The translations under genes and the position numbers were made by a program. Below the pieces are notes generated by a model. That model did no database searches. It was not told the origin of the DNA and worked only from the letters and a program-made list of their open reading frames with translations. A stretch of DNA of 64,000 nucleotides from Parcubacteria group bacterium Athens0714_16 (GTDB taxonomy: Bacteria > Patescibacteriota > Minisyncoccia > Phycocordibacterales > 21-14-all-36-13): positions 70,461 to 134,460 of the forward strand of contig VMGX01000001.1 in assembly GCA_007376805.1 (NCBI GenBank), in the 5' to 3' direction. Positions within the stretch are counted from its first letter, which is position 1. Every line of letters begins with the position of its first letter. Shown here one piece after another: positions 7,989 through 18,080 of this stretch.

Positions 7989-8516
7989 CTAAATCGCGAA
8001 ATCAAAAACTTTTACAGGAATTCTTTTTTTATTAGCTTTCTCAATAGTATCTTCTGTGCCAGCACCTTTACTTTCTTTTGTCTTTATATGAAATGCTATC
8101 AACTCATCAGAAAAATCTACAATCTTAGAATTACGTTCATAATACATTGTCTTTTTTGTTTCTTCTGTAAAATTTGTGTCAAAATTTTCCACTAATGCTT
8201 CCGAATTAATTTTTTTTAATTGTGTTAATTGTTTTATAAGATTTTCAGCTTGTTCTTGTGTGATAGTTCCTAAACGAGCATGTTTTCTATAGTGTTCCGA
8301 ATATTTTTCAAGTGTGGTCGGAAGAAAAATTTTTATTTTGTTTGCCTTAGGATCAAATCTGAATGCTTCATCAAGAGCAATGTAATCAACACCTAGCGCT
8401 CCACCAGAAACAATTCCATCTCCACGCTGAATAATTTCTCGCACAACTTTGCGAACTTTGTTTTCAATTTCTTGATTAGTTTTACGCCAACCACCACTAA
8501 TTCCAACCCATTTCAT
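7989..8516 (-). CDS. Rossmann-like SLOG/DprA-like domain protein (hypothetical)
   Basis: GDGIVSGGALGVDYIALDEA resembles the SLOG/DprA nucleotide-binding motif. Weak. Confidence 0.3.
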   Translation of the reverse strand: MKWVGISGGWRKTNQEIENKVRKVVREIIQRGDGIVSGGALGVDYIALDEAFRFDPKANKIKIFLPTTLEKYSEHYRKHARLGTITQEQAENLIKQLTQLKKINSEALVENFDTNFTEETKKTMYYERNSKIVDFSDELIAFHIKTKESKGAGTEDTIEKANKKRIPVKVFDFAI

Positions 8517-8621: not shown

Positions 8622-9314
8622 ATGAACACGGAACAAAATAAATATTGGGAAAATGTTTGGTCTAAAAAAGATTTGTTTCTAATCTCTTTATTCATATTGC
8701 TTGTGTTCGCACCATTTGTTGTAATAGCACTTTTAATAAATACCGAACTGGTTTTTAGAATGATGATAATAAATCTTGGTTCATTTTTTGCTATAACATC
8801 TGTTATTTTTACTTATTCAAAAAGAAAAGGTGTAAATATTAAAGAATTTGTTTTTAAAACTCCTGGTTTCAAATGGATGTTTATTGCGGTTCTAATTGCT
8901 TTGGGAGTTGTAATAATTGGCGGGGGTTTATCAAGTGCTTTTTCTAAATTATTAAATTTAGAATCCAGCGATTCGGGTTTAATAAATACGGTTTCAAGCG
9001 GTAAGTTGTGGTTAGATTTAATAAATCTCAAACTTATAGTGGGAATATTAATTCCTTTTGCGGAAGAATTATTTTTTAGAGGATTAATTTTTAGATATTT
9101 AAGACAAAAAAATTCTTTTGTTATGTCAGCACTTTTGAGTTCATTAATTTTTACACTCGCCCACCTTGACCCAACATCAATCTTTTTTACATTTTTGTTA
9201 GGATTTTCAAGTGCTTGGGTATTAGAAAAAACGAAGTCATTAATTCCTTCATTTCTAATTCATATGGGAGCTAACACCTTAGCAATAAACCTCCTCCTTC
9301 TTTCTATTTTTTAG
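8622..9314 (+). CDS. CPBP family intramembrane metalloprotease (CAAX protease/Abi)
   Basis: EELFFRG, FTLAHL and HMGANT motifs in a polytopic membrane protein. Confidence 0.8.
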   Translation: MNTEQNKYWENVWSKKDLFLISLFILLVFAPFVVIALLINTELVFRMMIINLGSFFAITSVIFTYSKRKGVNIKEFVFKTPGFKWMFIAVLIALGVVIIGGGLSSAFSKLLNLESSDSGLINTVSSGKLWLDLINLKLIVGILIPFAEELFFRGLIFRYLRQKNSFVMSALLSSLIFTLAHLDPTSIFFTFLLGFSSAWVLEKTKSLIPSFLIHMGANTLAINLLLLSIF

Positions 9315-9340: not shown

Positions 9341-10519
9341 TTATTTTTGCCCAATTATTTGGCTCATTTGTTGTATCGCTTCAGAAAGTTCTTCTTGAGT
9401 ATAAAAATTTTTATTATTTTTAATAGCTTCGTCTATCTCACTTTTTCTTGTAATTCCACACCTAAGAGTATTTGGATTACCTCCCGAGTGGTGTATCTGA
9501 TGTCGAATATATGTCAGATCAGGAATATCTGTACGTTCTACGCCTTTTTCATTTACATAGATTCTACTTTTTATATTTCCAATTTTCACATCTTTTATAT
9601 GTTTTTTCTGTTTCTTTTCTAAACAACTGTATAAAAAAATAAAAAGTAACTCATCTTCAATTCCGTTTATCAGGCCTTCTTTTAATACTTCAGTCATCCC
9701 ATTATTTTTCTGAAAAGAAAAAATTTTTTTGTTTAATTGTTCATCTAAGGCGGGAAAAACAAAATATGGGTCATGGGTAGTAATAATAACTTGGTGGTTT
9801 GGAAAACTTGCTATTTTTTCCAAGGTCGAATTCAGAGTTCTTTTTAGTTTGGGATGTAAATAAATTTCTGGTTCTTCAAATAAAATAAGAATTTGTTCAC
9901 CAATCAATGAATTATTTTCTAATAAAACATCCATATACGCCTTTAGAACAGAAAGAATTATCAATCTTTGTGTTCCCTGCCCAATTTCATTCAAGTTTCT
10001 CTCTTGTCCTTCTTCATTAACGACAATTTTGTCTATAAAAGATTGTATGATTATTTTTGAGTCCAATTCATTATTAGTAGGGTTTATATTGATTTTGTGT
10101 GTATTACACCCAGTAAAACTTTCAAGATTGATATTTGTTTTGTCTTCTGTATTTTTTAATATTTTTTTAATATTTTTTGAAATGTTTTCATCCAATTTAA
10201 TTTTTAAATTAATGTTTGAAAATAGTTTTGATAAGCTTTCTACCAACCATGTCGTTTTGGCCGTATGCTTCAAGACATCTTCGGATGGTTTTATATTTTC
10301 AGCTTTTATATAAATAATTTGTTCGTCTTTTAGTTTTATTTCTTCATCAAGATCATTAACAAACTTTGTGTTTTTACCAATAATTTCGTTTATAAAATTT
10401 GTTTTTCCAGAATTATTTTCTCCAGTGATTACAGTAATTTGTCCTAGTTCTAAAATAAAATTTTCAGGAATAGTTTTATTTTGTTTTGTAATTTCTATTT
10501 TTTTTATCATGTTATTCAA
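9341..10519 (-). CDS. AAA_21/ABC-type ATPase (defence-associated ATPase family) with uncharacterised ~130-aa C-terminal domain
   Basis: Walker A GENNSGKT, Q-loop/signature-like GQGTQR, Walker B ILILFEEPE, H-loop ITTHDP. Last gene of the MTase-MTase-HNH-ATPase operon. Confidence 0.75.
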   Translation of the reverse strand: MNNMIKKIEITKQNKTIPENFILELGQITVITGENNSGKTNFINEIIGKNTKFVNDLDEEIKLKDEQIIYIKAENIKPSEDVLKHTAKTTWLVESLSKLFSNINLKIKLDENISKNIKKILKNTEDKTNINLESFTGCNTHKININPTNNELDSKIIIQSFIDKIVVNEEGQERNLNEIGQGTQRLIILSVLKAYMDVLLENNSLIGEQILILFEEPEIYLHPKLKRTLNSTLEKIASFPNHQVIITTHDPYFVFPALDEQLNKKIFSFQKNNGMTEVLKEGLINGIEDELLFIFLYSCLEKKQKKHIKDVKIGNIKSRIYVNEKGVERTDIPDLTYIRHQIHHSGGNPNTLRCGITRKSEIDEAIKNNKNFYTQEELSEAIQQMSQIIGQK

Positions 10520-10619
10520 AATGGTTTATAATATTTCTATAATACACCACAACAAACTTGACACAAGTGCAAAAACCCTTTAAAAAGTTGAAAGATTGTG
10601 AATACCTGTGGATAACTAT

Positions 10620-11867
10620 TTATTCTAATTTGATTTTATACCACTTAAATAATTTTTCTAAGTCAAAAATAATACCAACCTTTTCAAGATGTTTTTTTCG
10701 ATTCTCAAATAAATTTTTAATAAAATCCTTTCTTTCTGTATCAACCGCGAGATGAATTTTTCTATGACAATTTGGACAAAGACAAATAATATTTTCTGTA
10801 ATATCTATACTAACATCAAATCTTTTTCTTTCAGAAAATGGTATCAAATGGTGCGCTTCAACATAATTTTTATTATTTGATTTTGAATTAAATGTCATGT
10901 GAGCATTATTATATTCGCATAAATAATTACTATTCTTTTTTGAAAATTCTTTCATGTTTTGACTAGAAAACAATATTTCATCGTCTGTATCTAAATCAAA
11001 ATTTTCTTTTTTCCATTCTTCAATAATCTTTCTTTTTTCTTCAAAAGAAAACCCTTCTTTTTGTAATTTTATTGATAAATTGCTTATTTTTAAGTTTCTG
11101 TTACTTATATTTTTTTCTGATATTTCAATATTTTTGTATTGTTCATCTACGAAGAAAAAATTTGATCTTAGTTTCCCTTTATTATTTTCAATTTCAGATT
11201 TATAATAATCTATTTTAAATGGCGTAAATAAACCAAATTTACTAATATAATAAAAAAGTGGCAATCTAAATTGGTCATTTTTCCTAAAAGATTTTTTTTG
11301 GACTAATCTTGGATTGTAGTTAAACACAGCTCCTATAATATCATTGTATTTGGTTAATTTTCTTTTTATCAACATAGGAGTTTTTTCTATTATATCCATA
11401 GAAATAAATCTATGATTAAAATCAAGTGAACCCCGAGCATCAATGGCTCCTGTAAAAAACATTGTTTTATATGTATCGTCTATATCTATAAGCCATTTTT
11501 CTATAATCCCGTATATATAAACTGACAGATCAACTGTGTTTGGTATTAACAAATCATTTTCTATCACAATAGATACTCCGTTTTTTATTCTTTGACTTTT
11601 ATCTTGTAAACTTGACCTGCTTATATCTTTATTTAATATGACCTCATAGTCATCACCCAAAAAATTTTCTAATTTTTTCTTATGAAGATAATAATATTCA
11701 TTGATGTTTTTCTCTAGTTTATTTTTACTTCTTTTTCCTTTTATGTATGCACTGTATGCTAAAATTTTATTATCATTCAATATAATAAAATGAGCATATA
11801 TCATTCCAAGAACAAAAGATGTTTGTATATTAGTATTTTCTATTTTTAATAACTCACTGAATTTCAT
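10620..11867 (-). CDS. HNH nuclease-domain protein (415 aa, HNH at C-terminus; candidate restriction endonuclease or Septu PtuB-like effector)
   Basis: C-terminal AHHLIPFSERKRF...IICLCPNCHRKIH HNH motif. Large N-terminal domain without recognisable motifs. 15-bp gap to the upstream MTase. Confidence 0.7.
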   Translation of the reverse strand: MKFSELLKIENTNIQTSFVLGMIYAHFIILNDNKILAYSAYIKGKRSKNKLEKNINEYYYLHKKKLENFLGDDYEVILNKDISRSSLQDKSQRIKNGVSIVIENDLLIPNTVDLSVYIYGIIEKWLIDIDDTYKTMFFTGAIDARGSLDFNHRFISMDIIEKTPMLIKRKLTKYNDIIGAVFNYNPRLVQKKSFRKNDQFRLPLFYYISKFGLFTPFKIDYYKSEIENNKGKLRSNFFFVDEQYKNIEISEKNISNRNLKISNLSIKLQKEGFSFEEKRKIIEEWKKENFDLDTDDEILFSSQNMKEFSKKNSNYLCEYNNAHMTFNSKSNNKNYVEAHHLIPFSERKRFDVSIDITENIICLCPNCHRKIHLAVDTERKDFIKNLFENRKKHLEKVGIIFDLEKLFKWYKIKLE

Positions 11868-11882
11868 ATAATTTTTTAACTT

Positions 11883-12563
11883 TTAAAATAACTTTTCTTG
11901 AATGTCATAATCTTTGATTCTTTTTTCCGTCATCTGACAATATTTTTTATTTATATCACCAACTATAAAATTACGAGCCTTTTTCTTACTTGCTACAGCT
12001 GTTGTACCAGAACCAACACAAGGATCTAATACAATATCACCTTTATTTGAACTCACATCTATTAAATATTCAAAAAGTTTCAATGGTTTTTGAGTTAAAT
12101 GTATTTTACTGCTACCATTCGGCATTTTTATAACTGTATTTTTATATTTTTCATTAAATGTTGCTCCTCTTTTTTTAAAATATATAAAAGATTCTACACC
12201 ACTAAGCCAAACGTGTTTTGAATTCATAGGACTGGGATTGGTTTTTTCCCAAATCATGAGACGAACAGAATAATTTTTGGAATTAAAATAATCAAAAATT
12301 TCTGATATCTGTTCTTTACCACAAAAAATATAACCACTACCTCTTGTAACTCTGTCTATCTCTACCAAAAAATCTCTTAATTCAAAGGTTTTTTTATTTG
12401 CTTCTCCTTTATCTAAATTTCTTAATCCGTTTGATTTTTTATTAACTTTTTCATAAGGTATATCAGTTAATACCAGATCAATAAAATTATTATCAATCAT
12501 TCTTAATAACAAAATTGCATCTTTTTGGTAAATCTTATTTAACTGAATGGTTTCTTTTTTCAT
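11883..12563 (-). CDS. Beta-class DNA methyltransferase (N4-cytosine or N6-adenine)
   Basis: Motif IV DIPY (DPPY-like) precedes motif I DPCVGSGTT. Overlaps the upstream Dcm gene by 29 nt. Confidence 0.8.
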   Translation of the reverse strand: MKKETIQLNKIYQKDAILLLRMIDNNFIDLVLTDIPYEKVNKKSNGLRNLDKGEANKKTFELRDFLVEIDRVTRGSGYIFCGKEQISEIFDYFNSKNYSVRLMIWEKTNPSPMNSKHVWLSGVESFIYFKKRGATFNEKYKNTVIKMPNGSSKIHLTQKPLKLFEYLIDVSSNKGDIVLDPCVGSGTTAVASKKKARNFIVGDINKKYCQMTEKRIKDYDIQEKLF

Positions 12564-13593
12564 ATCTTAATATATGTTTTGCAATTGCTTCCCCAAGTAA
12601 CGGTGGCACAGCATTCCCTATTTGTTTTATAATTGAAGACTTATTCCCAAAAAATATAAAATCATCTGGAAATGATTGAATTCTTGCCGCCTCTCTGGGA
12701 GTTATTGCTCTATGTAAAAATGGGTGTGAATTTTTTCCATTAGAAGGGGTATCAAATCTTGTTACAATAGTTGGACTGGGTTTATTTTTTTCTAATCTAC
12801 CCCATGTTTGTCCAAAAGTTGATGATATTTTTTCACTTAGAAACTCCTTTCCTTTCTCTGGTGGAATTCTTTTTAATCTATCGATGGCAATTTCAGAGTG
12901 TTTTGTGGCAACATGATTAAATAACTTTTTTGAATTTTTCCTCATTTTCTTTTGATACTTGCTTCTAGATTCTATTTTATATTCTGACTCAAAATTACCA
13001 TCGCCAGAATTTAAATACGACAAATCTGAGATTGCTTCCCAAACAGTAATTTTTCTATTAGTATTTTTTTCTGGCAACAAAAGTTTATCTTTTAATGATC
13101 CTATAAATATTGCTCTTTTTCTGTTTTGTGGAACCCCAAAATCAGAAGCGTCCAAAATACCAAAAGATATTTTATATCCAACCTTTGTTAATTCATTTAA
13201 AATTTGTTTTTTAAAATATCCACCTTGTTCTGTTAAAATAGTAGGCACATTTTCCATAACAAAATAAGTTGGTTTAAAAAATTTAATATATTTTATATAT
13301 TCTTTGAATAAAAAATTTCTTTCATCGTTTAATCCAGCTCTTTTTCCTTTTAATGAAAAGCCCTGACACGGTGGTCCACCAATAATTACATCTACATTTT
13401 TTATTTTCGATTTGATTTTTTGAGGTTTTATATTTCTTATATCTCCAACAAATATTTCCGTATTTTTATGATTTCTTTTCATTGATTCAGCAATCATTTT
13501 GTCATATTCCAATGCACCGACAATACAAAAACCCGCCATTTCAAAACCACGGCTTAATCCACCAACACCAGAAAATAAATCCAAAACTTTCAT
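12535..13593 (-). CDS. DNA (cytosine-5)-methyltransferase
   Basis: Motif I LFSGVGG, motif IV GGPPCQGFS, ENV motif. Confidence 0.9.
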   Translation of the reverse strand: MKVLDLFSGVGGLSRGFEMAGFCIVGALEYDKMIAESMKRNHKNTEIFVGDIRNIKPQKIKSKIKNVDVIIGGPPCQGFSLKGKRAGLNDERNFLFKEYIKYIKFFKPTYFVMENVPTILTEQGGYFKKQILNELTKVGYKISFGILDASDFGVPQNRKRAIFIGSLKDKLLLPEKNTNRKITVWEAISDLSYLNSGDGNFESEYKIESRSKYQKKMRKNSKKLFNHVATKHSEIAIDRLKRIPPEKGKEFLSEKISSTFGQTWGRLEKNKPSPTIVTRFDTPSNGKNSHPFLHRAITPREAARIQSFPDDFIFFGNKSSIIKQIGNAVPPLLGEAIAKHILRYEKRNHSVK

Positions 13594-13809
13594 TTTTTAA
13601 TAATTGTATCAGAAAAAATTTATTACTACTTCATTTTACCATTTTAAAATAATTATAAAAACAAAAACAATCGTCTTACTGCGATTGTCTTTATAACCTC
13701 TAGATTAGCTCTGCGCTTAGACCGTACTCACTAAATCATAAAATTATCCAGCAATATACAAACGGTTTGGCTCTCAGGTGGTCTCTAGAATTTTTAAGTT
13801 AAATATGTC

Positions 13810-13978
13810 TTACACTAAAATAGCATATGGAGCATTTATCCTAGTCCACATTACAGATTTTTTAGCATTTTCTAAAGAAGAATAACCTTCGCTCCAACAA
13901 ACAATTTCTCCATTAACAGCCTTTAGATGCCAGTGGTATAGTTTATCTTTACCAATATAAATTTCAAATTTAATCATG
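13810..13978 (-). pseudogene. Frameshifted DUF1508 (YegP-like) small protein
   Basis: MIKFEIYIGKDKLYHWHLKGC* then, in +1 frame, AVNGEIVCWSEGYSSLENAKKSVMWTRINAPYAILV*. An extra G in the GGG run at ~13919-13922 splits a 55-aa DUF1508-like domain. Confidence 0.45.
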
Positions 13979-14023: not shown

Positions 14024-14057
14024 AACAAAAAACGAGACCATTCGGCCTCGTTTTTTG
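14024..14057. terminator. Hairpin aacgagaccattcggcctcgtt with flanking A/T runs
   Basis: Stem-loop plus TTTTTT read in the sequence. Confidence 0.5.
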
Positions 14058-14252
14058 TAAGATAATTTTTAAAAAAATTCAAAACATGGTCGAAGGTAGC
14101 TAATTTTTTGGTTCAAATCAATTTTTTTGTTGTTGAACCTTCGATAACTAAGTCTCTTTTTTAATTTTTAATGAATCGTATAGGGCATTATACCATACTC
14201 AAGCAAAAAATGCAAGTAAATTTATTCACAAAAATAGAAAAGTATTTACGCT

Positions 14253-14672: not shown

Positions 14673-14826
14673 ATTATTCAGTGCACCAATATCTATATTC
14701 TACCACTTTGAAAAAAATTGAATAACATCATCTCCACGTCCCACAAAACCTTTAAAAACTCCCAAAATCTCTATACAACCATTTAATTAAATGATTGAAT
14801 ACAAAAAAACTATTCAATTATTTAAT

Positions 14827-14868: not shown

Positions 14869-15216
14869 ATTAGAGAAAGTATCCGTATCCTCTAAAAACC
14901 CCATGCAACCATTCAATTGAATTAGAGAAAGTATTTCTCAACATTATTTTTGTCTGTTTTTGTATACAACCATTCAATTGAATTAGAGAAAGCATCCGTA
15001 TTCCCCCAAAACTTCTATACAACCATTCAATTGAATTAGAGAAAGCATTTCTCAACATTATTTTTGTCTGTTTTTGTATACAACCATTCAATTGAATTAG
15101 AGAAAGTACCCGTATCCTCTAAAAACCTCCATACAACCATTCAATTGAATTAGAGAAAGCATTTCTCAACATTATTTTTGTCTGTTTTTGTATACAACCA
15201 TTCAATTGAATCTTTA
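14868..15216. repeat. Higher-order tandem repeat: 26-nt unit CAACCATTCAATTGAATTAGAGAAAG alternating with two spacer types (A ~27 nt, B 35 nt), ~3 copies of a ~115-bp super-unit
   Basis: Direct reading. Spacer B (catttctcaacattatttttgtctgtttttgtata) is identical three times. Spacer A variants are near-identical. Overlaps the 3' end of the Fic ORF. Confidence 0.8.
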
Positions 15217-16136
15217 TCTCTTGAATTACTATCTGCAACAAACAAGGTCAAAGCTGTAAGAGTTGGCGGTGTTAATTTAGATAAATTTAAAATACCGGCT
15301 TTTTTCAAAAACCATATAAAAGCATACGCTCCCGTTCTTTTGTTTCCATCAACAAGCGGATGATTTTTTACTATAAAATATAAAATGTGTGCAGCTTTTT
15401 CTTCTACTGTAGGGTATAAATCTTTTTTATCAAACGATTGAAAAATTGAACCAACAATTCCTTCTATACTTCCATCAACACGTTCTTGTCCAAACAAATC
15501 ACCCGCTAAATTCTTTTTAGTAAGTTCTTTTTTAAAATCAGAAAAAGCATTAAACAATTCTTGAGCTACAAAAACTATTCGTTTTTTAGTCGCACCTTTT
15601 TGTGGTAAATAAGATTTGTCGTAGGCGTCAAGCGACAACCATGTGTTTGCAAAAGCAGAAATCAATTCAATCATACTGGCATGATCAACGCTTGAACTCG
15701 CGGGAAGTGAGTGCTTAATATTTTCAACCGCTTTTTGAAATTGCGTATAGTTTTTTGCAATTTGTTTTTTGTTTATTACATAGCCATCAACAATATATTG
15801 ACGAAGTGTTTTGGTTGCCCATTTACGAAATTCAATCGCTACTCTCGAATTTGTTCTATAACCAATTCCTAAAATAACATCGAGTGAATAAAGTGTGATT
15901 GGTTTATCAGAATTTGCATTATGCATTTTTTGCATATTGCTTTTTTCTTCAATTTCACCATCTCTAAATATATTCTTTATGTGACGAGATACCACAGATT
16001 GATCAACACCAAAAAGATCCACAATTTGCGCTTGCGTTGCCCAAATAGTTTCGTGTGTAAAATCACCTTTTAATTCTATGGAACCACTTTTGGTTTGATA
16101 TACAACAATATCTTTAGTTTTTTTAACTTTTTTCAT
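15150..16136 (-). CDS. Fic/Doc family protein with RhuM-like N-terminal domain
   Basis: Fic motif HPLVDGNKRTGAYAF. N-terminal region matches the RhuM-type pattern (TKSGSIELKGDFTHETIWATQAQIVDLFGVDQSVVSRHIKNIF). C-terminal ~25 codons run into the tandem repeat. Confidence 0.75.
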   Translation of the reverse strand: MKKVKKTKDIVVYQTKSGSIELKGDFTHETIWATQAQIVDLFGVDQSVVSRHIKNIFRDGEIEEKSNMQKMHNANSDKPITLYSLDVILGIGYRTNSRVAIEFRKWATKTLRQYIVDGYVINKKQIAKNYTQFQKAVENIKHSLPASSSVDHASMIELISAFANTWLSLDAYDKSYLPQKGATKKRIVFVAQELFNAFSDFKKELTKKNLAGDLFGQERVDGSIEGIVGSIFQSFDKKDLYPTVEEKAAHILYFIVKNHPLVDGNKRTGAYAFIWFLKKAGILNLSKLTPPTLTALTLFVADSNSRDKDSIEWLYTKTDKNNVEKCFL

Positions 16137-16149
16137 TTTTTTATATAAA

Positions 16150-16400
16150 AGTATTTATATTCTACCACTTTGAAAATTTTTTAAAAAATTTGAATAACCC
16201 TCCAAATTTTCTAAAAACCTCCATACAACCATTCAATCCTGCCCTGTAGCCAACTTGTTGTGGTACTGGGGTGAATTAGAGAAAGTATCCGTATCCTCTA
16301 AAAACCTCCATGCAACCATTCAATTGAATTAGAGAATACATCCGTTAAGTTTTTGTATATAACCATTCAATTGAATTAGAGAATAGAGAGAACGGAAAGG
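16150..16400. repeat. Promoter-like conserved module plus copies of the 26-nt palindromic repeat and a GC hairpin element (16237-16272)
   Basis: tattctaccactttgaaaattttttaaaaaatttgaataaccctccaaatt is shared with 14690-14740 and 17900-17950. caaccattcaattgaattagagaa occurs twice. Confidence 0.6.
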
Positions 16401-16444
16401 AAACAAAAAATAAATCGATGCAATAACAAACTACAACCCAAAAA

Positions 16445-16723
16445 TTATAAACCTGAGATTATGTTTGAAATAAAATTTGGCAACGATTTTGATATTGAAT
16501 AATAAACGAGTAAGCTTCTCTGATCAGGTGAGAGTATTTCAACGGCTTCCAAAAGTTTTATATGTTTTGAGGTGGCTTGAATAGAAATCTTTAATTCCTC
16601 GGCTATGTCACCCACCGATGCTTCGCCTTCTTTTTTAATAAATGAAATAATTGCTAGCCGACGATAATTCGCCAACGCCTTGATTGATCTCTCTAATTTT
16701 TTAAATTGTTTTGCTTCAATCAT
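16445..16723 (-). CDS. ArsR/SmtB-family winged-HTH transcriptional regulator
   Basis: LANYRRLAIISFIKKEGEASVGDIAEELKISIQATSKHIKLLEAVEIL matches the ArsR HTH pattern. Confidence 0.55.
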   Translation of the reverse strand: MIEAKQFKKLERSIKALANYRRLAIISFIKKEGEASVGDIAEELKISIQATSKHIKLLEAVEILSPDQRSLLVYYSISKSLPNFISNIISGL

Positions 16724-16825
16724 TTTTTATATTTTTAACTTTTAATATTCCAAAAATATTTTTTGTTTTTGTAATTAATTCTAAAATATTTTTACTGAAT
16801 ATATTATATCTCTCAAAAATCCACC

Positions 16826-16910
16826 ATACAACCATTCAATTGAATTAGAGAATACATCCGTTAAGTTTTTGTATACAACCATTCAATTGAATTAGAGAAA
16901 GCATTTATAA
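16826..16910. repeat. Two further copies of the 26-nt palindromic repeat CAACCATTCAATTGAATTAGAGAA upstream of the ArsR-like gene
   Basis: Direct reading. Spacer catccgttaagtttttgtata is shared with 16340-16362. Confidence 0.6.
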
Positions 16911-17043
16911 AAACGCCTGCTCGCCTTTGGAGAGAACGGGTAATTAAATTAGAAAATAGAAAGAAAATAAATCTATCCCCCTATTCGCTACAATTAGGGG
17001 ATAGATAATGCAAAAAATAAACGGGTCTATTTTTAAAAATTTT

Positions 17044-17886
17044 CTATAAAAAATACATATCTTGTCCATAACCACCAACACCAATATATTCTGCCTCGCC
17101 TTTCAAAATAGATTCGTATGGCTTACAAGCAAAACATCCTTTTTCTCCGCGAGGACAATTGAAAATTTCTTTTTCTCTGGCCTCTTTAACTTTTAAAGCA
17201 ATCGCAAGCACTTTTTCTTTGGCTTCATCAATATTTGGCAATTTCATTTCTATTGGTTCGTCATCTTTATCAAGATACCAATATGATGCTCCTGAAATTT
17301 TTCTTTTTTGTAATGCATTTAAAAGCAAGAGGTAGATTGGAAGCTGAAGTGAATCTTCGGCTTCGTCATTTTTACCAGTTTTAAAATCAATGATACGAAC
17401 ACTGTCATTTTTTTCAACATATTCCAACCAATCAATAAGCCCACAAAGTATTATATTTTCATCTTCGGAAAGATAAAAATTTGGTGGCATATTATTATGT
17501 CCATCTTTTATTTTTACAGTTTTTCTTGCAATAGGTCCCGGATTTTTTATAACCCGTTCTATCATTTCAACTCCTCTTTTTTTAAATTCATTTTCTTCGT
17601 CATCATTTTTAAATCCGCCTTTTTTACCAGATACTTGCGACCAAGCATTTTCAAAATCGGCTAAAAAATCTCGCTTCATTCTTTCTTCAACTGGAATATT
17701 TTTTGATGATTCAAGTGTGGTATGCACTGCCTGACCAAGAGAAAGATACGGATTAACTATATTTATTTTTCTCCCAGTTTTTGGGTCTTTATAAATATTG
17801 TGCAAATAATAAGCCCGTGGACATTTCAAAAAATCCCCCATTGAAGAATGCGATACCCATATTGACTTGTATTTATCTGGCGTCAT
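17044..17886 (-). CDS. PD-(D/E)XK nuclease, Cas4/RecB-C-terminal-like with 4-Cys cluster
   Basis: N-terminal Cys (LKCPRAY), IDFKTGK (D/E-x-K), C-terminal CPRGEKGCFAC (Cx6Cx2C) typical of Cas4-type Fe-S nucleases. Confidence 0.6.
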   Translation of the reverse strand: MTPDKYKSIWVSHSSMGDFLKCPRAYYLHNIYKDPKTGRKINIVNPYLSLGQAVHTTLESSKNIPVEERMKRDFLADFENAWSQVSGKKGGFKNDDEENEFKKRGVEMIERVIKNPGPIARKTVKIKDGHNNMPPNFYLSEDENIILCGLIDWLEYVEKNDSVRIIDFKTGKNDEAEDSLQLPIYLLLLNALQKRKISGASYWYLDKDDEPIEMKLPNIDEAKEKVLAIALKVKEAREKEIFNCPRGEKGCFACKPYESILKGEAEYIGVGGYGQDMYFL

Positions 17887-17899
17887 TGTTTTAAATAAT

Positions 17900-18080
17900 T
17901 ATTTATATTTTACCACTTTAAAAATTTTTTAAAAAATTTGAATAACCCTCCAAATTCCACAAAATTCTTTAATTCTTTAATTTCTCTATTCAACCATTTA
18001 ATTAAATGATTGAATACAAAAAAACTATTCAATTATTTCCTACAAAAACGGACGAGTAATTAAATTAGAAAATAGTTTCT
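17900..18080. repeat. Promoter-like conserved module plus stem-loop module (ttaaatgattgaatac aaaaaaa ctattcaattattt)
   Basis: Near-identical to 14690-14826. Contains TGGTAAAAT/TGGTAGAAT extended -10-like sequence on the minus strand ~22 nt upstream of the ATG. Confidence 0.6.

What the first reader, a model, noticed from the sequence alone, without database searches (positions are those of the whole stretch)
9341..13593. Four-gene defence operon: m5C MTase + beta-class N4/N6 MTase + large HNH-domain protein + AAA_21/ABC ATPase
Four minus-strand genes are tightly packed: 29-nt overlap between the MTases, 15-bp gap MTase to HNH, 100-bp gap HNH to ATPase. Two MTases of different chemistry next to a 415-aa protein with only a C-terminal HNH motif (AHHLIPF...CLCPNCHRKIH) is the layout of type IIS systems. 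Eco31I/MnlI-like enzymes need two MTases for an asymmetric site and use HNH-type cleavage domains. The ATPase has Walker A, ABC-signature-like, Walker B and H-loop motifs. This is the ATPase class of Septu PtuA, Gabija GajA and PARIS AriA. Its partner here is an HNH protein but in reversed order and with a large uncharacterised N-terminal domain. The ATPase carries a ~130-aa C-terminal region with no recognisable nuclease fold. This may be a hybrid R-M/Septu-like system or a new ATPase-assisted restriction mechanism.
Basis: partly seen in the sequence, partly recalled or inferred. Interest (0 to 1): 0.75.

Follow-up and report, generated by a model that had tools for sequence, protein, structure and literature searches.

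The report
Restriction-modification cassette beside separate defence ATPase
The four genes are real, but they form two separable defence modules: a three-gene restriction-modification cassette whose cutting enzyme has an undescribed domain combination, and next to it a single-gene ATPase that probably carries an RNA-cutting "suicide" domain.

Summary
All four minus-strand genes, their spacing and the quoted motifs are confirmed. The idea of one four-gene unit is not supported.

- **R-M cassette.** The order m5C MTase, then small beta-class N4/N6 MTase, then 415-aa HNH protein recurs in all 10 related loci that reach upstream of the HNH gene. Four of these loci come from genomes named Saccharibacteria, Campylobacterales, Spirochaetota and Arcobacteraceae. 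None of the 13 loci holding most or all of an HNH-protein homologue carries the ATPase.
- **ATPase.** Its Patescibacteria-centred family sits in about 11 unrelated neighbourhoods and never beside the HNH protein. About half of these lie beside restriction or methylase genes of four other kinds.
- **HNH protein.** The structure model (pLDDT 87.7) shows a double LAGLIDADG fold. Both catalytic acids are replaced, as in WhiA. It is fused to an McrA-type HNH nuclease, which suits a type IIS-like enzyme. I found no description of this architecture.
- **ATPase tail.** The roughly 130-aa tail has an invariant R-[N/H/D]-x3-H motif at the end of a helix. Only sub-threshold matches to three HEPN families support the assignment. 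This is the ABC-ATPase plus HEPN layout of PrrC/RloC-like abortive-infection RNases, which are reported beside R-M and RhuM/Fic genes. A RhuM-Fic gene lies 1.5 kb away here.

Verdict: two adjacent modules of known kinds. The restriction enzyme is a new architectural variant. Interest is moderate.

The parts
12535..13593 (-). C5-cytosine DNA methyltransferase (352 aa), first gene of the R-M cassette
   Evidence: PF00145 5.8e-81 and TIGR00675 1.4e-71; PADLOC MTase_II 3.4e-120. All catalytic motifs are intact. It is 62-77% identical to the gene at the same position of the cassette in L001-L004, L081-L083 and L085.
11883..12563 (-). Small beta-class N6-adenine/N4-cytosine DNA methyltransferase (226 aa), overlapping the m5C gene by 29 nt
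   Evidence: PF01555 4.5e-26. The best solved relative is M1.HpyAVI (5hek/5hfj), 4e-23 over the full length. The unusual motif IV, TDIPY, is conserved in all 8 cassette homologues checked.
11133..11867 (-). Restriction enzyme, N-terminal domain (residues about 1-245): single-chain double LAGLIDADG fold, catalytically degenerate; the presumed DNA-recognition module
10932..11132 (-). Restriction enzyme, helical linker (residues about 246-312)
   Evidence: Lower-confidence helical stretch (pLDDT 55-85) between the two domains.
10620..10931 (-). Restriction enzyme, C-terminal McrA-type HNH nuclease domain (residues about 313-415, plus stop codon)
9734..10519 (-). Separate module: ABC-type ATPase domain (residues about 1-262) of the OLD/AriA/GajA/PtuA class
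9341..9733 (-). Separate module: C-terminal domain of about 130 aa on the ATPase, HEPN-like; the predicted RNase effector
   Evidence: R339 and H344 are invariant in 58 sequences. The motif YIR[N/H/D]xIHHPEN is 99-100% conserved in 128 representatives at 50% or lower identity. The domain is found only at the C-terminus of AAA_15/AAA_21 ATPases: 746 representatives in total, with 10 longer ones checked by Pfam. No PADLOC or Pfam model covers it. Sub-threshold hits fall on three HEPN families: DUF3644, HEPN_MAE_28990 and HEPN_Apea.
9488..9505 (-). Codons for R339-H-Q-I-H-H344, the Rx4H motif
   Evidence: The motif lies at the end of predicted helix 334-343. This is where the HEPN Rx4-6H motif sits, and the residue after R is H here and N or D in relatives, as described for HEPN (PMC3710099).
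13633..13641 (-). Extended -10-like promoter motif TGGTAAAAT, 40 nt upstream of the m5C start
   Evidence: TGGTANAAT has 15 hits against 4.9 expected, and 0 of 100 shuffles reach 15. Copies sit just upstream of several gene starts. There is none before the N4/N6, HNH or ATPase genes. No terminator-like hairpin lies between 13593 and 9341.
15150..16136 (-). Context only: RhuM-Fic/DOC fusion gene 1.5 kb upstream of the cassette
   Evidence: PF13310 6.6e-17 and PF02661 4.5e-12. RhuM/Fic-Doc genes are reported to accompany R-M genes and PrrC-like ABC-HEPN genes (PMC3710099).

Best explanation
The interval holds two juxtaposed but genetically independent defence modules.

**Module A (10620-13593): a mobile three-gene type II R-M cassette, probably type IIS.**
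- An m5C MTase and a small beta-class m6A/m4C MTase each protect one strand of an asymmetric site (inferred).
- A monomeric restriction enzyme reads the site with a catalytically dead, single-chain double-LAGLIDADG domain. It cuts with one McrA-type HNH active site tethered by a helical linker, most likely at a short distance from the site (inferred).

**Module B (9341-10519): a single-gene system.**
- An OLD/AriA-class ABC ATPase acts as sensor or switch, fused to a C-terminal HEPN-like domain. The invariant Rx4H motif of that domain is predicted to be a metal-independent RNase site.
- By analogy with PrrC/RloC, the ATPase keeps the RNase silent until infection. The RNase then cleaves tRNA or another RNA and aborts the infection (inferred).

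In this genome the two modules may share one transcript, but they are not inherited together.
For: **Module A as a unit**
- The order m5C, N4/N6, HNH protein is conserved in L001-L004, L081-L083, L085 and L161, and partly in L084.
- The hosts of four loci are named as Saccharibacteria, Campylobacterales, Spirochaetota and Arcobacteraceae. Two loci, L083 and L085, appear to read a stop codon as Gly.
- The MTases are more conserved (62-77%) than the nuclease (44-69%).
- The N-terminal domain exists only in this family and is absent from IMG/VR.

**Architecture of the nuclease**
- Model pLDDT 87.7.
- Catalytic acids replaced, as in WhiA.

**Type IIS analogy**
- M1.HpyAVI is the closest solved MTase.
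- The HpyAVI/MnlI system has overlapping m5C and m6A MTase genes.
- MnlI, HphI, Eco31I and MboII are HNH type IIS enzymes.

**Module B as independent**
- No ATPase homologue in any locus holding an HNH-protein homologue.
- No HNH-protein homologue in 63 ATPase loci.
- About 11 different neighbourhoods.

**HEPN-like tail**
- Invariant R339 and H344; 99-100% conserved across 128 distant representatives.
- The position at a helix end and the N/H/D residue after R match the published HEPN description.
- The sub-threshold Pfam hits fall on three HEPN families.

**Defence context**
- R-M genes of four other kinds lie within two genes in 4 of 10 further contexts. One more context is a defence island.
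- A RhuM-Fic gene lies nearby in the window, matching the published R-M + ABC-HEPN + RhuM/Doc neighbourhood theme.
Against: - No recognition sequence, methylation type or cleavage position is known. Type IIS behaviour is inferred only from the two MTase chemistries and the domain layout.
- The small MTase is only about a third identical to M1.HpyAVI, so specificity cannot be transferred.
- The 100-bp gap has no terminator-like hairpin and no clear promoter motif. Co-transcription, and hence functional coupling in this genome, is not excluded.
- The ATPase neighbourhood sample is small, about 11 contexts.
Confidence: 0.68

Rival explanations
1. PrrC-style guard. The ATPase-HEPN-like protein is functionally coupled to whichever R-M system lies next to it. 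It is held inactive by, or monitors, the R-M proteins. It fires as an RNase when a phage anti-restriction factor disables them. The four genes would then work together here without being co-inherited.
For: - The ATPase gene sits directly after R-M genes with very short gaps in three lineages: 100 bp here, 11 bp after an Eco57I-like RM gene and 6 bp after a GIY-YIG gene.
- In two more lineages it lies next to an m5C+PDDEXK_5 pair or near a DpnI-like gene.
- PrrC is an ABC NTPase plus HEPN protein kept silent by its R-M neighbour.
- No terminator separates the HNH and ATPase genes, and the only strong promoter motif precedes the m5C gene.
Against: - About half of the contexts have no R-M gene nearby.
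- The neighbouring R-M systems are of unrelated types, so a specific protein-protein contact such as PrrC-EcoprrI is hard to picture.
- No Pfam AAA_13 (PrrC family) match.
- Defence genes cluster in islands without functional coupling.
Confidence: 0.2
2. One reading: a single integrated four-gene system, either a hybrid R-M/Septu-like system or ATP-assisted restriction. The ABC ATPase and the HNH protein would act as a PtuA/PtuB-like pair on DNA.
For: - Same strand and tight packing.
- The ATPase hits PtuA/GajA/AriA/Old models.
- Septu pairs such an ATPase with an HNH protein.
- No terminator between the genes.
Against: - The HNH protein is always with the two MTases and never with the ATPase in the related loci.
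- The ATPase never has an HNH-protein neighbour in 63 loci.
- PADLOC finds no PtuB-type match for the HNH protein. Its best hit is a type IV McrA-like model covering the HNH domain only.
- The ATPase carries its own conserved C-terminal effector-like domain.
Confidence: 0.05
3. The ATPase is not a defence protein. It would be a DNA-repair or maintenance ABC ATPase of Patescibacteria (RecF/SbcC/RecN-like), and its C-terminal domain would be a nucleic-acid-binding or dimerisation domain.
For: - Several contexts are housekeeping or DNA-metabolism neighbourhoods. Examples are DUF2130-ATPase-PDDEXK_1 or RNase_T-PIF1 helicase, DUF2779 and DciA, and DNA polymerase and ligase genes.
- The fold search shows SMC, Rad50 and UvrA among the top hits.
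Against: - There is no conserved synteny across lineages.
- Placement beside R-M genes, an integrase-bearing island and a multi-system defence island is typical of accessory defence genes.
- The best profile matches are defence ATPases.
- An invariant Rx4H pair is more typical of a catalytic site than of a binding surface.
Confidence: 0.1
4. The 415-aa protein is not the cognate restriction enzyme. It would be a McrA-like modification-dependent (type IV) nuclease, or a free-standing homing endonuclease that happens to sit beside two orphan MTases.
For: - The HNH domain is closest to EcoKMcrA and to the PADLOC mREase_IV model.
- The LAGLIDADG fold is the hallmark of homing endonucleases.
- Many members of the HphI-type HNH family lack MTase neighbours.
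Against: - Strict colinearity with both MTases in 10 of 10 informative loci across distant hosts.
- The LAGLIDADG catalytic acids are lost.
- No intron or intein context, and no viral copies.
- A methyl-dependent nuclease next to two active-looking MTases would be self-toxic unless the specificities differ.
Confidence: 0.04

Closest known systems
MnlI / HpyAVI type IIS R-M system (CCTC/GAGG)
   Same: - Two MTases of different chemistry, m5C plus a small beta-class m6A enzyme, encoded by overlapping ORFs.
- The nuclease of MnlI is an HNH type IIS enzyme.
- M1.HpyAVI is the closest solved relative of the window's small MTase, 4e-23 over the full length.
   Different: - Identity to M1.HpyAVI is only about one third, and motif IV is DIPY, not DPPY.
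- I could not compare the nuclease with R.MnlI because its sequence is not in the tools.
- None of the 77 homologues carries an MnlI or REBASE-type name.
- The recognition site is unknown.
HphI type IIS R-M system (GGTGA)
   Same: - R.HphI is an HNH enzyme with a conserved C-terminal nuclease and a variable N-terminal recognition domain.
- From my own recollection of Lubys et al. 1996 (paper not held), the HphI gene order is hphIMC-hphIMA-hphIR, the same as here.
   Different: - HphI is placed in His-Me finger group 6, while McrA and MnlI are in group 1. The window enzyme's HNH is closest to McrA.
- The HphI recognition domain 'could not be predicted reliably', so no fold comparison is possible.
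- No sequence comparison could be run.
WhiA/DUF199 and LAGLIDADG homing endonucleases (I-DmoI, I-Tsp061I, PI-SceI)
   Same: [quoted passage not shown]
- As in WhiA, the acidic residues at the end of the LAGLIDADG helices are replaced. WhiA has an arginine at one position, as does this family. The domain therefore cannot cut DNA.
   Different: - Here the degenerate LAGLIDADG domain is fused to an HNH nuclease and embedded in an R-M cassette.
- WhiA carries a helix-turn-helix domain and regulates transcription. Homing endonucleases cut with the LAGLIDADG site itself and sit in introns or inteins.
- The review of homing-endonuclease relatives lists no LAGLIDADG restriction enzyme.
PrrC / RloC / APECO1_4465-type ABC-ATPase-HEPN proteins (anticodon nucleases)
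   Same: - N-terminal ABC NTPase plus a C-terminal domain of about 100-130 aa with an Rx4-6H motif.
- Frequent placement in or beside R-M loci, together with RhuM/Fic-Doc genes. This matches the window and the homologue contexts.
- From memory, not checked here: the length of 392 aa is close to PrrC's roughly 396 aa.
   Different: - No match to Pfam AAA_13, which from memory covers PrrC. The ATPase is of the AAA_15/AAA_21 (OLD/AriA) type.
- The neighbours are type II systems of varied kinds, not a type Ic hsd operon.
- HEPN homology is not statistically established.
- No RNase or tRNA target is known.
Septu (PtuA/PtuB), Gabija (GajA), PARIS (AriA), OLD
   Same: The same broad class of ABC ATPase.
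   Different: - Matches cover only the ATPase core.
- No Toprim domain (OLD, GajA).
- No co-inherited DUF4435/Toprim partner (AriB) or small HNH partner (PtuB).
- The C-terminal domain is not covered by any PADLOC model.

Membership tests
Type II R-M system (type IIS subtype) | A separate MTase gene or genes and a nuclease gene, linked and co-inherited | tested here: met
   The three genes are colinear in 10 of 10 informative related loci from distant hosts.
Type II R-M system (type IIS subtype) | Asymmetric recognition site with cleavage at a fixed distance outside it | not testable with these tools
   Inferred only from two MTases of different chemistry and a monomer-style recognition domain tethered to one HNH site. 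Confirmation needs a methylome and cleavage mapping.
Type II R-M system (type IIS subtype) | Catalytically competent MTases and nuclease | tested here: met
   All m5C motifs are present. Motifs IV and I of the beta-class MTase are conserved. HNH catalytic residues: H340, N359, H368 and H372 are invariant and H339 is conserved in at least 90% of 49 sequences.
HNH (His-Me finger) nucleases, McrA-like group | beta-beta-alpha-metal fold with the HNH catalytic residues and Cys/His zinc ligands | tested here: met
LAGLIDADG homing endonucleases | [quoted passage not shown] | tested here: met
LAGLIDADG homing endonucleases | Acidic metal-binding residue at the penultimate position of each LAGLIDADG motif | tested here: not met
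   H/W/R occupies this position in motif 1 and R145 in motif 2, conserved across the family. The fold is shared, but this is not an active family member. It resembles WhiA in this respect.
Septu (PtuA + PtuB) | ABC ATPase co-inherited with an HNH partner | tested here: not met
   The two genes never co-occur outside this window.
OLD / Gabija GajA | ABC ATPase fused to a C-terminal Toprim nuclease | tested here: not met
   Old and GajA models match only the ATPase core, up to about residue 280. The tail has no Toprim hit.
PARIS (AriA + AriB) | AriA ATPase with an adjacent DUF4435/Toprim AriB gene | tested here: not met
   No such neighbour in the window or in homologue contexts.
PrrC-type anticodon nuclease | N-terminal ABC-type NTPase | tested here: met
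PrrC-type anticodon nuclease | C-terminal HEPN RNase domain with a catalytic Rx4-6H motif | tested here: inconclusive
   The motif is invariant and correctly placed. Only sub-threshold matches to HEPN profiles were found, and no structural match was obtained.
PrrC-type anticodon nuclease | Sequence membership (Pfam AAA_13, which from memory covers PrrC) and embedding in a type Ic hsd operon | tested here: not met
   No AAA_13 hit. The neighbours are type II systems or there are none.

The most novel reading that the evidence does not exclude
Two linked novelties remain possible.

1. The 415-aa protein founds a class of restriction enzymes that read DNA with a domesticated, inactive LAGLIDADG meganuclease scaffold and cut with a tethered HNH domain. 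It would be a natural counterpart of engineered meganuclease-nuclease fusions.
2. The neighbouring ATPase-HEPN-like protein is a generic 'R-M guardian' of Patescibacteria. It would be a PrrC-like RNase that senses failure of whatever type II R-M system it sits beside.
Probability: 0.2. Interest if true: 0.75.

Novelty: new variant of a known kind. Interest (0 to 1): 0.45.

Why it matters
- **Restriction enzyme.** If the domain assignment holds, this family adds the LAGLIDADG fold to the short list of DNA-recognition scaffolds used by restriction enzymes. It would also show a homing-endonuclease scaffold recruited as a pure reader. Inactive LAGLIDADG scaffolds have been engineered as targeting modules (my own knowledge, not checked here), so a natural fusion to a separate nuclease domain is of practical interest. 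Every member found comes from a metagenome or a metagenome-assembled genome, including lineages with an altered genetic code. Each could carry a new specificity.
- **ATPase.** The ATPase-HEPN-like family has 746 representative clusters, and no Pfam or PADLOC model covers its tail. It is a candidate widespread abortive-infection module in organisms with very small genomes, where defence systems are poorly charted.
- **Scan.** For the scan itself, the main value is corrective. Tight packing on one strand was taken for a four-gene system, but comparative context splits it into a three-gene module and a one-gene module.

Tried and rejected
2. **Profile searches of the tail against PDB sequences** gave only chance-level hits (kinesin Ncd, NDUFA13).
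3. **Pfam scans of 35 and 33 tail sequences** gave nothing significant. I report the HEPN-family hits as sub-threshold only.
4. **afdb50 fold search** for annotated relatives of the nuclease: the library was unavailable.
5. **Naming the system through characterised homologues.** Cluster look-up gave only 'HNH endonuclease' or no name at all. The HphI cloning paper is not held. The recognition site therefore could not be assigned.
6. **Rfam scan of the window** found only two tRNAs.
7. **Flanking repeats** that would mark the cassette as an insertion: only short, low-identity matches.
8. **Homing endonuclease, type IV enzyme and Septu readings** were considered and rejected, for the reasons given under the rival explanations.
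9. **Own promoter for the ATPase gene.** The gap holds only a weak TG-TATTAT-like sequence and no TGGTANAAT motif. This is left open.

Full report
**Observation**

| Gene | Coordinates | Main evidence |
|---|---|---|
| C5-cytosine MTase | 12535-13593 | PF00145 5.8e-81 |
| beta-class N6/N4 MTase | 11883-12563 | PF01555 4.5e-26 |
| 415-aa HNH protein | 10620-11867 | HNH models hit only residues 330-372 |
| ABC-type ATPase | 9341-10519 | AAA_21/AAA_15 1e-17; best PADLOC models Old, AriA, GajA, PtuA, all on the ATPase core only |

The genome is Parcubacteria group bacterium Athens0714_16, from 100% identical database entries. G+C falls to 24% across the HNH gene, against about 30-33% nearby.

**Are the four genes one unit?**

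I collected homologues of the HNH protein. About 57 are full-length, at 31-69% identity. I then fetched their loci from genomes and metagenomes.

- In every locus that extends upstream of the HNH gene, an m5C MTase and the small N4/N6 MTase precede it in the same order and orientation. These loci are L001 Saccharibacteria, L002 Campylobacterales, L003 Spirochaetota, L004 Arcobacteraceae, L081, L082, L083, L085 and L161, and partly L084.
- The MTases are 62-77% identical to the window's, and the nuclease is 44-69% identical.
- None of the 13 loci holding most or all of an HNH-protein homologue contains an ATPase homologue. This rests on tblastn at 1e-5 for L001-L005 and L081-L086 and on the Pfam gene tables for L161 and L162.
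- Conversely, none of 63 loci around ATPase homologues contains the HNH protein.

The three-gene cassette is therefore the conserved, horizontally mobile unit. The ATPase is a neighbour only in this genome. It is positive for the MTase-HNH link and negative for the ATPase.

**The nuclease**

An AlphaFold model built on 49 sequences is confident (pLDDT 87.7, pTM 0.87).

- Foldseek returns almost only those two classes.
- Two family members give weak Pfam Hom_end hits.
- The two LAGLIDADG-like helices are recognisable in sequence: FVLGMIYAHF and FFTGAIDARGS. The penultimate position, which binds the catalytic metal in homing endonucleases, is H/W/R in the first motif and a conserved arginine in the second. 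WhiA shows the same kind of loss, including an arginine at one position, and does not cut DNA.
- H340, N359, H368, H372 and C317 of the HNH domain are invariant. H339, C364 and C367 are conserved in at least 90% of the 49 sequences.

I infer that the LAGLIDADG lobes read the DNA and the HNH domain, on a helical linker, cuts it.

The N-terminal domain occurs only in this family. The full-length protein is absent from IMG/VR viral contigs, which argues against a phage homing endonuclease. In the literature I could search, I found no restriction enzyme described with a LAGLIDADG-fold reader. The 2008 fold census of type II enzymes does not mention LAGLIDADG.

**Which known system does the cassette resemble?**

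- The small MTase's closest solved relative is M1.HpyAVI (4e-23, full length). This is the m6A enzyme of the MnlI-like CCTC/GAGG system of H. pylori. Its m5C partner is encoded by an overlapping ORF.
- MnlI, HphI, Eco31I, MboII and Hin4II are the documented HNH type IIS enzymes.
- The recognition domain of HphI has resisted prediction.
- From memory, the HphI operon has the same gene order. I could not verify this.

The layout is thus that of a type IIS system. The site, the methylated bases and the cut position remain unknown. Identity to characterised enzymes is too low to transfer specificity.

**The ATPase**

Its family of about 380-400 aa proteins is mostly from Patescibacteria. I examined 10 further independent neighbourhoods.

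| Query protein | Neighbourhood |
|---|---|
| P0087 | Directly after an N6_N4 MTase and an Eco57I-like 917-aa RM enzyme; integrase-bearing island |
| P0127 | Directly after a small GIY-YIG gene, with a divergent LexA-S24-MTase gene |
| P0168 | Beside a convergent m5C MTase + PDDEXK_5 pair |
| P0150 | Two genes from a DpnI-like gene |
| P0116 | Island with three other AAA_15/21 ATPases (one with an OLD-type Toprim domain), RloB and a type III system |
| P0093, P0109 | Between DUF2130 and a nuclease plus PIF1 helicase |
| P0080, P0094, P0137 | Among unrelated or housekeeping genes |

About half of the contexts therefore have R-M genes within two genes, and these are of four other kinds. This is what one expects of a free-standing defence gene that gathers in defence islands, or of a gene that works alongside R-M in general.

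**The ATPase tail**

- In 58 sequences, the invariant residues outside the ATPase core are T276, L296, R339 and H344.
- A profile of the tail finds 746 representative clusters among 1.84 billion proteins. In every full-length hit the match lies at the C-terminal end. The 10 longer hits checked by Pfam are all AAA_15/AAA_21 ATPases.
- No PADLOC model reaches into the tail.
- Across 128 representatives the signature is HNELYG ... YIR[N/H/D]xIHHPEN, with R 99% and the last H 100% conserved.
- In the model (pLDDT 84.9), R339-H344 lies at the end of a helix. A variable insert precedes it, and before that a helix with conserved acidic residues.
- The published description of HEPN domains matches this: about 100-120 aa; Rx4-6H at the end of helix 3; N, D or H after the arginine; an upstream acidic residue; a variable insert between helices 2 and 3.
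- The only Pfam families hit by more than chance interest are HEPN families: DUF3644 (which overlaps the EC042_2821 HEPN family), HEPN_MAE_28990 and HEPN_Apea. All are at non-significant E-values of 0.02-0.05.

I therefore call the tail HEPN-like, with roughly even odds.

The same paper reports that ABC-ATPase-HEPN proteins (PrrC, RloC, APECO1_4465 types) are often found in R-M operons together with RhuM or Fic/Doc genes. The window has a RhuM-Fic fusion 1.5 kb upstream of the cassette. The family is not PrrC itself: there is no AAA_13 match and no type Ic hsd context.

**Transcription**

A motif TGGTANAAT is enriched in the window (15 hits against 4.9 expected). It sits just upstream of several gene starts, including the m5C gene. 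No such motif, and no terminator-like hairpin, lies before the ATPase gene. Co-transcription of all four genes in this genome is therefore possible. This keeps a PrrC-like functional coupling alive as a minority reading (about 0.2).

**Conclusion**

The type IIS-style R-M reading is supported. The four-gene hybrid reading is not. What is there is a conserved three-gene R-M cassette whose nuclease has an undescribed LAGLIDADG-reader plus HNH-cutter architecture. Beside it lies an unrelated single-gene ABC-ATPase with a probable HEPN RNase tail. Both belong to known kinds of system. The nuclease architecture is a new variant, and the ATPase family is an uncharacterised member of a described theme.

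Noticed in passing
window 14888-15229: Three tandem copies of a 114-nt unit (100/91/78% identity). The third copy is the 3' end of the RhuM-Fic gene (15150-16136, minus strand), so the gene end is followed by two extra diverged copies of itself.
   Followed up: partly
window 14025-14195 (minus strand): A TGGTATAAT promoter-like motif (14187-14195) and a strong terminator-like hairpin (14058-14025) bracket about 130 nt with no ORF. This is a candidate small RNA. There is no Rfam match.
   Followed up: partly
window 13810-13977 (minus strand): A 55-aa DUF1508/YegP-family ORF lies just upstream of the R-M cassette (PF07411 8e-10). It is followed by a terminator-like hairpin at 13694-13661.
   Followed up: partly
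whole window, e.g. 13633-13641, 14697-14705, 16159-16167, 17907-17915: The extended -10-like motif TGGTANAAT is enriched threefold (15 hits against 4.9 expected; 0 of 100 shuffles reach 15). Copies sit 20-45 nt upstream of gene starts, so it is probably this organism's promoter signature.
   Followed up: partly
L083 (935-3940) and L085 (1-2571): The same three-gene cassette has in-frame stop codons at invariant glycine positions of the nuclease and the small MTase. These hosts therefore appear to read a stop codon as Gly. The codon itself was not read, but UGA=Gly (code 25, as in Gracilibacteria and Absconditabacteria) would fit.
   Followed up: partly
P0007, P0050-P0052 (nuclease homologues); L183 1068-2504: Some nuclease homologues carry a C-terminal extension of about 145 aa that hits Peptidase_S24 (LexA-like). 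In L183 a LexA_DNA_bind-S24-N6_N4 MTase fusion sits next to a GIY-YIG gene and an ATPase homologue. This may be LexA-like control built into R-M proteins, or it may be a gene-call read-through artefact.
   Followed up: partly
L173 4740-9700; L175 4723-9311: In two lineages the ATPase homologue lies in a conserved run: DUF2130, ATPase, nuclease (PDDEXK_1 or RNase_T), PIF1 helicase, with gaps of 7-90 bp. This may be a different multi-gene system built around the same ATPase.
   Followed up: no
L164-L169 and L185: The ATPase homologue plus the Eco57I-like RM enzyme and an MTase lie between a phage-type integrase and a block with a Zot-like gene. IMG/VR lists this block as viral, so it may be an integrated inovirus-like element carrying defence cargo.
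   Followed up: no
window 15150-17886: Further accessory-looking genes lie upstream of the cassette: the RhuM-Fic fusion, an ArsR-type HTH (16445-16723) and a Cas4-like PDDEXK_1 nuclease (17044-17886). A SLOG/DprA-like 175-aa protein (7989-8516) and a CAAX protease (8622-9314) lie downstream of the ATPase gene.
   Followed up: partly
window 10001-12000: G+C drops to 24% over the nuclease gene, against about 30-33% in the surrounding sequence. This is consistent with acquisition of the cassette by transfer.
   Followed up: no
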